Source of the DNA: the human T2T-CHM13v2.0 reference genome, Homo sapiens
NCBI RefSeq assembly: GCF_009914755.1
Contig: NC_060945.1
Direction: 5' to 3' (one strand)
Length of the DNA: 64,000 nt
Shown here: positions 11,677 to 12,201 of the stretch, one piece after another
Layout of the letters: every line of letters starts with the position of its first letter
Numbering within the stretch: position 1 is the first letter of the stretch
The notes under the pieces: generated by a model
Told to the model about the DNA's origin: nothing
The model's input: the letters and a program-made list of their open reading frames with translations, nothing else
Databases searched by the model: none
Translations under genes and position numbers: made by a program

Positions 11677-12201
11677 AGCCAGGCACAGCGGCTCACTCCT
11701 GCAGTCCCAGCACTTTGGGAGGCTAAGGTAGGAGGTTCACTTCAGCCTACTTCAGCCCACGAGCTCATCTTGTAGCTCTGGCGCTGGAGGAGATGTGGTC
11801 TGATGTGGCCCTCCCGGAGTTGGACAGAACTTTGTCTGAATGTGCAGAGATGTCTTCCGTGGCTGAAATTAGCAGCCACATGTGTGAAAGCTTTCTCATG
11901 AGCCCAGAAAGTGTACGGGAGTGTGAGCAACCCATCCGGAGGGTCTTCCAGAGCCTCAGCCTGGCCGTGGACGGCCTCATGGAGATGGCCCTGGACTCCA
12001 GCAGCCAGCCTGGGCAACATAGCGAGACCTCATTTTAAGTTAGCCAGGCGTGGTGGCATGCGTCTGCGGTCCCAGCTCCTCAGGAGGCTGAGGCAGGATT
12101 GCTTGATCCTGGGAGGCTGAGGCTGCCGTGAGTTGTGGTTGCACCACTGCACTCCAGCCTGGGTGCAGAGCAAGACCCTATCTCAAAAATGAAAATAAAA
12201 A
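11677..12201 (+). mobile_element. AluJ-like element interrupted by the exon-19 copy
   Basis: Left part 11677-11762; Alu resumes at 12005 with ccagcctgggcaacatagcgagacc. Confidence 0.92.
11763..12004 (+). pseudogene. Duplicated copy of PCNT exon 19 (pseudo-exon) inside an Alu
   Basis: 242 bp matching 11062-11303 at offset +701 with 6 transitions. Keeps acceptor gctcatcttgtag and lacks the donor. Confidence 0.95.

What the first reader, a model, noticed from the sequence alone, without database searches (positions are those of the whole stretch)
11677..12201. Young copy of exon 19 pasted into the B-box of an old Alu 701 bp downstream
Seen: 11763-12004 copies 11062-11303 (13 intronic nt with the acceptor plus 229 of 233 exon nt). 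There are only 6 differences, all transitions (11779, 11794, 11795, 11883, 11915, 11930), and no indels. The copy replaces the 'ttcgaga' of the Alu's GAGTTCGAGACC B-box, has no poly-A or TSD of its own, has near-matching junction sequence (gagct / ccag) and a 10-bp tandem duplication (acttcagcct-acttcagccc) at the left junction. ACA in the exon vs ATG in the copy suggests an ancestral ACG that decayed independently in each. Inference: a templated insertion during break repair (polymerase-theta or SDSA type) long after the Alu inserted. It is striking that the borders nearly coincide with exon borders. Knowledge: this exon encodes the PLK1 sites S1235/S1241 needed for centrosome maturation.
Basis: partly seen in the sequence, partly recalled or inferred. 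Interest (0 to 1): 0.75.

Follow-up and report, generated by a model that had tools for sequence, protein, structure and literature searches.

The report
Exon copy pasted into old Alu
A 242-base copy of one pericentrin coding exon was pasted into an old Alu repeat 701 bases downstream, most likely as a by-product of DNA break repair a few to about 25 million years ago; it is real but an ordinary kind of event.

Summary
Window 11763-12004 copies 11062-11303 (13 intron nt plus 229 of 233 exon nt). The offset is 701, with 6 transitions and no indels. These are the only two copies in the assembly.

The copy splits a single old Alu (11677-12201). It replaces 5-7 nt of the Alu's B box and has no poly-A or target-site duplication of its own. 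The Alu keeps 2 of 20 consensus CpGs, while the copy keeps 7 of 10. The copy is therefore much younger, roughly 3-25 My using recalled substitution rates.

Junctions are nearly blunt: 1 nt of microhomology on the left and 0 on the right. The best reading is a one-step copy-and-paste templated insertion at a break or stalled fork. At 242 nt it is about ten times larger than typical polymerase-theta inserts. It fits SDSA/MMBIR-type or transcription-coupled insertion better.

The near match of the copy's ends to the exon's borders has a probability of about 3e-4 under random donors. It remains unexplained. An RNA- or R-loop-guided origin is a minority possibility.

The exon does encode T1209, T1221, S1235 and S1241. 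Overall this is a new member of a known kind, of modest interest.

The parts
11062..11303 (+). Donor tract: the last 13 nt of the upstream intron (with the TTGTAG acceptor) plus the first 229 nt of the PCNT coding exon
   Evidence: collinear with 11763-12004 at offset 701, 236 of 242 identical, no indels
11075..11307 (+). PCNT coding exon, fourth in the window. It encodes PALEETWSD...DSSRQ and carries the PLK1 sites T1209, T1221, S1235 and S1241
   Evidence: hub annotation; frame-2 translation; T/T/S/S spacing of 12/14/6 matches the sites named in PMC3246884
11667..11674 (+). Left copy of the direct repeat TCTTTTTT flanking the host Alu (candidate target-site duplication of the Alu, not of the exon copy)
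   Evidence: T-rich and low in complexity, so weak on its own
11677..11762 (+). Left part of the host Alu (left monomer up to the B box), sense orientation
   Evidence: aligns to the 5' 70-85 nt of the other Alus in the window
11739..11758 (+). 10-bp tandem duplication (ACTTCAGCCT / ACTTCAGCCC) ending 4 nt before the left junction, with AC at both unit borders
   Evidence: the only such tandem in the window and absent from the 25 other Alus. Whether it arose in the same event is inferred, not shown
11763..12004 (+). Inserted copy of the exon tract. The acceptor is kept, the donor site is absent, and the exon frame is open over 77 codons with L1204, M1209 and C1239 in place of P, T and R
12005..12201 (+). 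Right part of the host Alu, from CCAGCC of the B-box region through the right monomer and the A-rich tail
12203..12210 (+). Right copy of the direct repeat TCTTTTTT flanking the host Alu

Best explanation
This is a one-step, donor-preserving ('copy-and-paste') templated insertion made from DNA. A double-strand break, or a stalled and disengaged nascent strand, arose in the B-box region of an old sense-oriented Alu in the PCNT intron, and 5-7 nt were lost. One 3' end then primed on an intact copy of the sequence 701 bp upstream, on the sister chromatid, the homologue or the same molecule, with essentially no microhomology. About 242 nt were synthesised across the acceptor and nearly the whole exon. 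The new strand was displaced and joined almost bluntly to the other Alu end, and fill-in completed the duplex. The 10-bp tandem duplication beside the left junction may be a slippage scar of the same error-prone synthesis. The event happened in the germline roughly 3-25 My ago. The product is most likely neutral: the copy keeps an acceptor but has no donor site and is not an annotated exon. What is shown: the anatomy, the intact donor, the lack of poly-A and target duplication, the small target deletion, the near-blunt junctions, and the large age gap between Alu and copy. What is inferred: the break itself, the direction of synthesis, the template molecule, the enzymes, and the absolute date.
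For: The donor is intact and only two copies exist in the assembly. The copy has the same orientation as the donor, lies 701 bp away, and has no indels. The host is a single Alu with its own tail and flanking repeat. The target lost TTCGAGA, while 24 of 25 other Alus keep that region contiguous. There is no poly-A and no target duplication at the insert. Strict junction microhomology is 1 nt (G at 11763) on the left and 0 nt on the right, with interrupted matches next to both junctions. This matches experimental templated insertions at breaks in human cells: median insert 120 bp, and 59% with one blunt end and one microhomology end, read as invasion followed by NHEJ (bioRxiv 10.1101/2022.09.30.509517, passages). 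It also matches class-2 templated sequence insertions, which have no TSD, no poly-A, a microdeletion and microhomology (PMC5110952, passages). Local template switches that return to the original template, often at microhomeology, are described as accumulating in the human germline (PMC8421209, passages). On age, the copy keeps 7/10 CpGs against the Alu's 2/20 (p=0.0017). Non-CpG change is 2/222 against 40/241 (p=3e-10). There are zero differences in the outer 16 and 74 nt of the copy.
Against: No empty site from an outgroup and no second human assembly was available. Both the age and the one-step nature therefore rest on internal evidence and recalled substitution rates. The near-absence of microhomology is atypical for strictly microhomology-primed models. 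Within 2 kb upstream, 18 CCAG, 9 CCAGC and 3 CCAGCC sites offered better pairing for the right end than the site actually used. The insert is about ten times longer than typical polymerase-theta inserts. A purely DNA-level model gives no reason for both ends of the tract to fall within 13 and 4 nt of the borders of one exon. Random donors within 2 kb achieve this in about 3 of 10,000 trials. That statistic is post hoc.
Confidence: 0.62

Rival explanations
1. The insertion was transcription-coupled or RNA-templated. The patch was copied either from nascent PCNT pre-mRNA tethered at the locus, or from the coding strand displaced in an R-loop. The RNA route could use reverse transcription by LINE-1 ORF2p acting without its endonuclease, or by polymerase theta. 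On this reading the borders of the tract reflect RNA processing, for example an RNA 3' end produced by cleavage at the exon's 5' splice site.
For: The donor is a transcribed exon in sense orientation, immediately upstream of the break in the same transcription unit. If the three shared bases CAG (12006-12008) are counted, the tract reaches the last base of the exon. The border coincidence is about 3e-4 under random DNA donors. Class-2 templated insertions are reported to be enriched for transcribed sequence and reduced by reverse-transcriptase inhibitors (PMC5110952). Insertions at breaks are reported to be facilitated by transcription and DNA/RNA hybrids (10.1101/2022.09.30.509517). That polymerase theta can reverse-transcribe is recalled, not looked up.
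Against: The 13 intron nt exclude spliced mRNA and exon circles. The left border, 12-13 nt before the exon, does not sit next to any plausible branch point. By my reading, the A residues lie at -9, -17 and -37, and only the one at -37 has a good yUnAy context. A lariat-stop model therefore fails. Base 12005 is the Alu's C rather than the exon's G, so priming on the exon's last four bases would need extension from a mismatched 3' terminus. All six differences are ordinary transitions, four of them at CpG. Nothing in the sequence is specific to RNA.
Confidence: 0.15
2. Two steps were involved. First, a 701-bp head-to-tail tandem duplication (11062-11762) formed with one breakpoint in the Alu. 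Later, a deletion of about 460 nt removed the duplicated intron and Alu-left part.
For: The left junction (Alu position | 11062) is exactly what a 701-bp tandem duplication would create. Tandem exon duplication is common in human genes: 4,027 unannotated intronic exon-like targets are reported in PMC9013439 (passages).
Against: It needs a second event whose right end lands within 5-7 nt of the first event's breakpoint, so that Alu continuity is almost restored. That is roughly a 1-2% coincidence for a random deletion end within the 701-bp unit (my estimate). No remnant of the duplicated intron is left.
Confidence: 0.08
3. The exon tract entered together with the Alu, when the reverse transcriptase switched templates from Alu RNA to PCNT pre-mRNA and back. 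It looks young only because gene conversion from the exon keeps refreshing it.
For: Chimeric retro-insertions made by template switching are known (recalled, not looked up). The two copies are close enough for conversion.
Against: Conversion tracts need flanking homology, so the edges of an old copy should be decayed. Here the outer 16 nt and 74 nt show no difference, with P about 8e-8 at the Alu's non-CpG divergence. Identity stops abruptly at both borders. The ACA/ATG site indicates independent decay rather than homogenisation.
Confidence: 0.02
4. It is an assembly artefact, or a private variant of the sequenced genome.
For: Only one assembly was examined. A junction 30-mer scan of prokaryote genome contigs, done for stray human DNA, found nothing and is uninformative.
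Against: The two copies differ at 6 sites in a pattern typical of evolutionary decay. An artefactual duplicate would be identical. The flanks are unique sequence plus a single coherent Alu.
Confidence: 0.02

Closest known systems
Class-2 templated sequence insertions (TSI/TSIP; Onozawa & Aplan, PMC5110952)
   Same: The donor is left intact. There is no target-site duplication and no poly-A. There is a microdeletion at the target, minimal microhomology, and a transcribed donor.
   Different: Those are defined by donors in distant regions and are argued to be RNA-derived. Here the donor is 701 bp away on the same strand and includes unspliced intron bases. Population frequency is unknown.
Templated insertions at double-strand breaks by invasion, synthesis, displacement and NHEJ (Indel-seq study, bioRxiv 10.1101/2022.09.30.509517)
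   Same: The size range matches (median 120 bp, assay limit 260 bp). One junction has microhomology and one is blunt. The donor is transcribed.
   Different: Those are somatic events induced in cell lines at an engineered acceptor. This is an old germline event whose break is inferred.
MMBIR / FoSTeS template-switch insertions (MMB-TI; PMC8421209)
   Same: The template is local and synthesis returns to the original template. Microhomeology lies near the junctions, and such events accumulate as germline variants.
   Different: Strict microhomology here is only 1 and 0 nt. No replication context can be shown.
Polymerase-theta (TMEJ) templated insertions
   Same: Priming on minimal base pairing. 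A small nearby tandem duplication (10 bp) of the kind TMEJ makes.
   Different: TMEJ inserts are 'generally small (<25 bp)' and are copied from sequence flanking the break (PMC12426944). This tract is 242 nt and comes from 701 bp away.
Tandem exon duplication / unannotated exon copies in neighbouring introns (PMC9013439)
   Same: An exon-like copy lies in the adjacent downstream intron, in the same orientation and with the acceptor kept.
   Different: It is not a head-to-tail segmental duplicate. The donor site is missing, it sits inside a repeat, and it is not annotated as an exon. PCNT is not mentioned in that paper's text, nor in the 10 supplementary files of PMC5740500.

Membership tests
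Class-2 templated sequence insertion | The donor sequence remains at its original place (copy, not cut) | tested here: met
   both the exon and the copy are present, and they are the only two matches in the assembly
Class-2 templated sequence insertion | No target-site duplication, no poly-A tract, NHEJ-type junctions (microdeletion, 0 to few nt of microhomology) | tested here: met
   5-7 Alu nt lost, no A-run at 12005, junction overlap of 1 nt and 0 nt
Class-2 templated sequence insertion | Template lies in a distant genomic region or is derived from RNA | tested here: not met
   The donor is 701 bp upstream. RNA origin is not testable from sequence
LINE-1-mediated (class-1) retro-insertion | Target-site duplication of 5 nt or more, a poly-A tail, and a TTTT/A-type target | tested here: not met
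   none of the three is present at the insert. The flanking TCTTTTTT repeat and the A-rich tail belong to the Alu
Polymerase-theta templated insertion (TMEJ) | Short insert (generally <25 bp) copied from sequence immediately flanking the break | tested here: not met
   The tract is 242 nt and comes from 701 bp away, against the description in PMC12426944. The adjacent 10-bp tandem duplication alone would fit
Polymerase-theta templated insertion (TMEJ) | Dependence on POLQ | not testable with these tools
   The event is historical
MMBIR/FoSTeS template switch | Microhomology or microhomeology at each switch point | tested here: inconclusive
   1 nt exact on the left, with G.TC interrupted matches, and 0 nt exact on the right, with CAG one base inside. 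Better sites nearby were unused
Tandem (segmental) exon duplication | Head-to-tail duplicate of a contiguous block including the exon and its flanks | tested here: not met
   only the first 242 of the 701 nt are duplicated. Identity ends at both Alu borders
Functional duplicated / mutually exclusive exon | Both splice sites present and an open frame compatible with the neighbouring exons | tested here: not met
   The donor GT of the exon is not copied. A crude position matrix built from the window's 28 exons finds no donor scoring 3 or more at the copy's end. Read after the parent exon, a stop comes after 41 codons (frame 0). RefSeq lists no exon here (hub table)

The most novel reading that the evidence does not exclude
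The patch is 'exon-shaped' because its template was not bare DNA. The template was either nascent PCNT pre-mRNA already cleaved at, or held by the spliceosome at, the exon's 5' splice site, or the coding strand displaced by an exon-anchored R-loop. That would make this a fixed germline example of transcript-guided break repair in cis, with tract ends set by the splicing machinery.
Probability: 0.12. Interest if true: 0.7.

Novelty: new member of a known kind. Interest (0 to 1): 0.3.

Why it matters
This is a clean natural specimen of a large local templated insertion. The target sequence before the event can be reconstructed, because the Alu consensus shows exactly what was lost. That makes it useful as a worked example of germline break repair.

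There are practical consequences. The copy is 97.5% identical to a coding exon of a disease gene; PCNT underlies MOPD II, which is recalled and not looked up. Its paralogous differences would read as P1204L, T1209M and R1239C if reads were mis-assigned or if gene conversion transferred them. The copy also keeps a usable-looking acceptor that could act as a decoy or poison-exon start.

If exon-shaped borders turned out to be a general feature of such insertions, it would point to transcript-guided repair in the human germline.

Tried and rejected

(2) Independent human or primate sequence: none of the collections holds primates. A junction 30-mer scan of prokaryote genome contigs for stray human DNA gave 0 matches, which is uninformative.

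(3) Literature on this locus. 'pericentrin + Alu + exon duplication' returned 0 papers. PCNT with P1204L, T1209M, R1239C or the three-letter forms of two of them returned 0 papers. The text of PMC9013439 has 0 occurrences of PCNT, and so do the 10 supplementary files of PMC5740500. About 1.7 million PMC articles are not covered by the search.

(4) Lariat-stop model for the left border: rejected, because no branch-point-like A adjoins the border.

(5) Spliced-cDNA or circular-RNA origin: rejected because of the 13 intron nt.

(6) Microhomology as the reason for the borders: rejected, because many better sites lay within 2 kb.

(7) Other exon copies in the window: of 28 exons, only this one has a non-self match outside itself. 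One exon has an internal 58-nt repeat.

(8) Cryptic-exon potential. A crude matrix from the window's own 28 splice sites scores the copy's acceptor at 4.0 and the parent's at 5.7, with real sites ranging from 2.8 to 14.9. The best downstream donor is GAG|GTAACT at 12230, scoring 7.4. With so small a training set this is weak, and no expression data were available.

(9) The 10-bp duplication could not be dated. One mismatch in 10 nt is compatible with either age.

Full report
**1. Observation**

Reading 10560-12760 and running the repeat finder on 10000-13500 confirm a two-copy direct repeat. The copies are 11062-11307 and 11763-12008, 97% identical, 701 nt apart.

A column-by-column comparison gives 236 of 242 identities over 11062-11303 versus 11763-12004, with no indels. 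At 11304/12005 there is a G/C transversion. The following CAG matches, but it is also what an Alu has at that place. To the left of 11763 only 11 of 32 columns match.

The hub's exon starts at 11075. The tract is therefore 13 intron nt plus 229 of 233 exon nt. The whole assembly holds only these two copies. Among the 28 annotated exons in the window, this is the only one with a copy elsewhere in the window.

**2. The host**

The sequences on both sides of the copy match the window's Alus. A BLAST of the two parts gave 67 HSPs including the self-hits.

I aligned the two parts, with the insert left out, against 25 full-length Alus of the window. They behave as one element:
- left monomer up to the B-box region
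- then CCAGCC... through the right monomer
- then an A-rich tail.

An exact 8-nt direct repeat, TCTTTTTT, flanks the element at 11667-11674 and 12203-12210. It is a plausible target-site duplication of the Alu, but it is low in complexity.

Relative to the window consensus the element lacks TTCGAGA. That is 7 nt if the CT at 11764-5 came from the donor, and 5 nt if it is the Alu's TT with one change. One other Alu in the window reads GAGCT there. 24 of the 25 other Alus carry this region uninterrupted.

The name 'B box' for this motif is recalled knowledge. The AluJ assignment (GGGCAACATAGCGAGACC, GAGGCTGC) also rests on recall.

**3. Relative and absolute age**

The host Alu differs from the window consensus at 59 of 281 aligned positions (21%). 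That places it among the most diverged of the 26 elements.

| Measure | Host Alu | Exon copy | Test |
|---|---|---|---|
| CpGs kept | 2 of 20 consensus CpGs | 7 of 10 inferred ancestral CpGs | Fisher p=0.0017 |
| Non-CpG change | 40/241 | 2/222 | p=3e-10 |

Part of the Alu's divergence is subfamily difference from an AluS-like consensus, so 21% overstates its decay. The CpG contrast does not depend on that.

Of the six differences:
- Three are CG to TG in the copy (11779, 11794, 11883).
- One is CG to CA in the source (11094).
- Two are G/A changes at synonymous third positions, whose direction is unknown.

The adjacent pair, ACA in the exon against ATG in the copy, is most simply explained by an ancestral ACG that decayed once in each copy. 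This is an inference, because no outgroup was available.

I used recalled human-chimpanzee figures: 15.2% divergence at CpG bases, 0.92% elsewhere, and a 6.5 My split. With these, six changes give 7.7 My (95% 2.8-16.7) if both copies drift freely. They give 11.5 My (4.2-25) if the exon is constrained. These dates are rough.

The idea that the copy is as old as the Alu and kept fresh by gene conversion is unlikely. The outer 16 nt and the last 74 nt of the copy carry no difference, and identity stops abruptly at both borders.

**4. Junction anatomy**

Left junction: observed ...CCCACGAG-CTCATC.... Base G at 11763 is shared by Alu and donor. A at 11762 is Alu-only. C at 11764 is donor-only. This gives 1 nt of strict microhomology, with interrupted matches (G.TC).

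Right junction: G at 12004 is donor-only and C at 12005 is Alu-only. This gives 0 nt of strict microhomology, with CAG shared one base further in.

Microhomology does not explain the choice of donor ends. Within 2 kb upstream there were 18 CCAG, 9 CCAGC and 3 CCAGCC sites, and 63 GAG sites.

A 10-bp tandem duplication lies at 11739-11748 and 11749-11758. It is 9/10 identical, has AC at both unit borders, and ends 4 nt before the left junction. It is unique in the window.

There is no poly-A and no duplication of the target at the insert.

**5. Mechanism**

The anatomy is that of a donor-preserving templated insertion at a break or at a disengaged nascent strand.

It matches the class-2 templated sequence insertions of Onozawa and Aplan in every junction feature (PMC5110952, passages). 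It differs from them only in having a local donor.

It matches the outcome described for induced breaks in human cells. There the median insert is 120 bp. 59% of inserts have one blunt junction and one with microhomology, read as microhomology-mediated invasion completed by NHEJ. Transcription facilitates the process (bioRxiv 10.1101/2022.09.30.509517, abstract start and passages).

Local template switches that return to the original template, often at microhomeology, are said to accumulate as germline variants (PMC8421209, passages).

Polymerase-theta inserts are 'generally small (<25 bp)' (PMC12426944, passages). The 242-nt tract is therefore unlikely to be a simple TMEJ product, although the 10-bp duplication could be one.

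I commit to a one-step DNA-templated copy-and-paste at confidence 0.62. The rivals are:
- an RNA- or R-loop-guided template (0.15)
- a tandem duplication followed by a deletion (0.08)
- co-insertion with the Alu (0.02)
- an artefact or private variant (0.02).

**6. The exon-border coincidence**

I simulated random donors of 50-1000 nt within 2 kb of the break. Both ends fall within 13 and 4 nt of the two borders of one exon in about 3 of 10,000 trials.

This statistic is post hoc, but it is not explained by microhomology.

RNA-based explanations were examined:
- Spliced mRNA and exon circles are excluded by the 13 intron nt.
- A lariat stop is not supported, because the only good branch-point context, CTCAC, has its A at -37, not next to the border.
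- An RNA end at the cleaved 5' splice site would fit the right border only if a mismatched primer terminus was extended.

The coincidence therefore remains unexplained. It is the basis of the novel case.

**7. Coding content and consequences**

In frame 2 the exon reads PALEETWSDVALPELDRTLSECAEMSSVAEISSHMRESF.... Its T, T, S, S at spacings of 12, 14 and 6 fit T1209, T1221, S1235 and S1241. These were pinpointed as PLK1 sites in PCNTB 1182-1261. S1235 and S1241 were required for spindle formation, while T1209A and T1221A rescued (PMC3246884, passages).

The residue numbering here is anchored on that fit. It is not derived from a full coding sequence.

The differing Thr codon is thus T1209, a dispensable site. 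The copy would read L1204, M1209 and C1239.

The copy keeps the TTGTAG acceptor but not the donor. Read after the parent exon, it meets a stop after 41 codons (frame 0). RefSeq lists no exon there.

A crude matrix built from the window's 28 splice sites gives the copied acceptor 4.0 against 5.7 for the parent. This is weak evidence either way.

**8. Novelty**

I found no mention of this locus in print in the searches made. The kind of event is well known. Exon-like copies in introns are numerous, with 4,027 intronic targets reported in PMC9013439.

Verdict: the finding is real, correctly described and correctly interpreted in outline. It is a new member of a known kind, of modest interest.

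Noticed in passing
window 11036-11040 and 11737-11741: TCACT lies 37-39 nt before the acceptor in both the parent intron (CTCAC, a good branch-point context) and the copy (TTCAC, which is Alu sequence). It is at the same 701-nt offset, and the offset is only in register because of the 10-bp tandem duplication. The copied acceptor therefore has a branch-point-like motif at the same distance. This is probably chance.
   Followed up: partly
window 17226-17897: Tandem repeat array in a PCNT intron. Self-matches are 93-94% identical, at offsets of about 112, 221, 279, 333 and 389 nt, suggesting a period near 56 nt.
   Followed up: no
window 25401-26328: Two blocks of about 290-350 nt, 93% identical, at offsets of about 579-638 nt. 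They overlap RefSeq 'enhancer' features 25583-26093 and 26094-26603 (and the hub table).
   Followed up: no
window 35130-35541: Tandem repeat with a period of about 120 nt and 94-97% identity. It begins 9 nt before the end of the coding exon 34983-35138, so the exon's donor region is part of the first repeat unit.
   Followed up: no
window 38416-38536: Inside the large coding exon 38192-38962, two 58-nt stretches 63 nt apart are 91% identical. This is an in-frame 21-codon internal duplication.
   Followed up: no
window 12125-12133: The right arm of the host Alu reads GCC|GTGAGT, a perfect intron-side donor hexamer with a poor exon side. It lies 124 nt after the end of the exon copy. My crude matrix scored it below 3.
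   Followed up: partly
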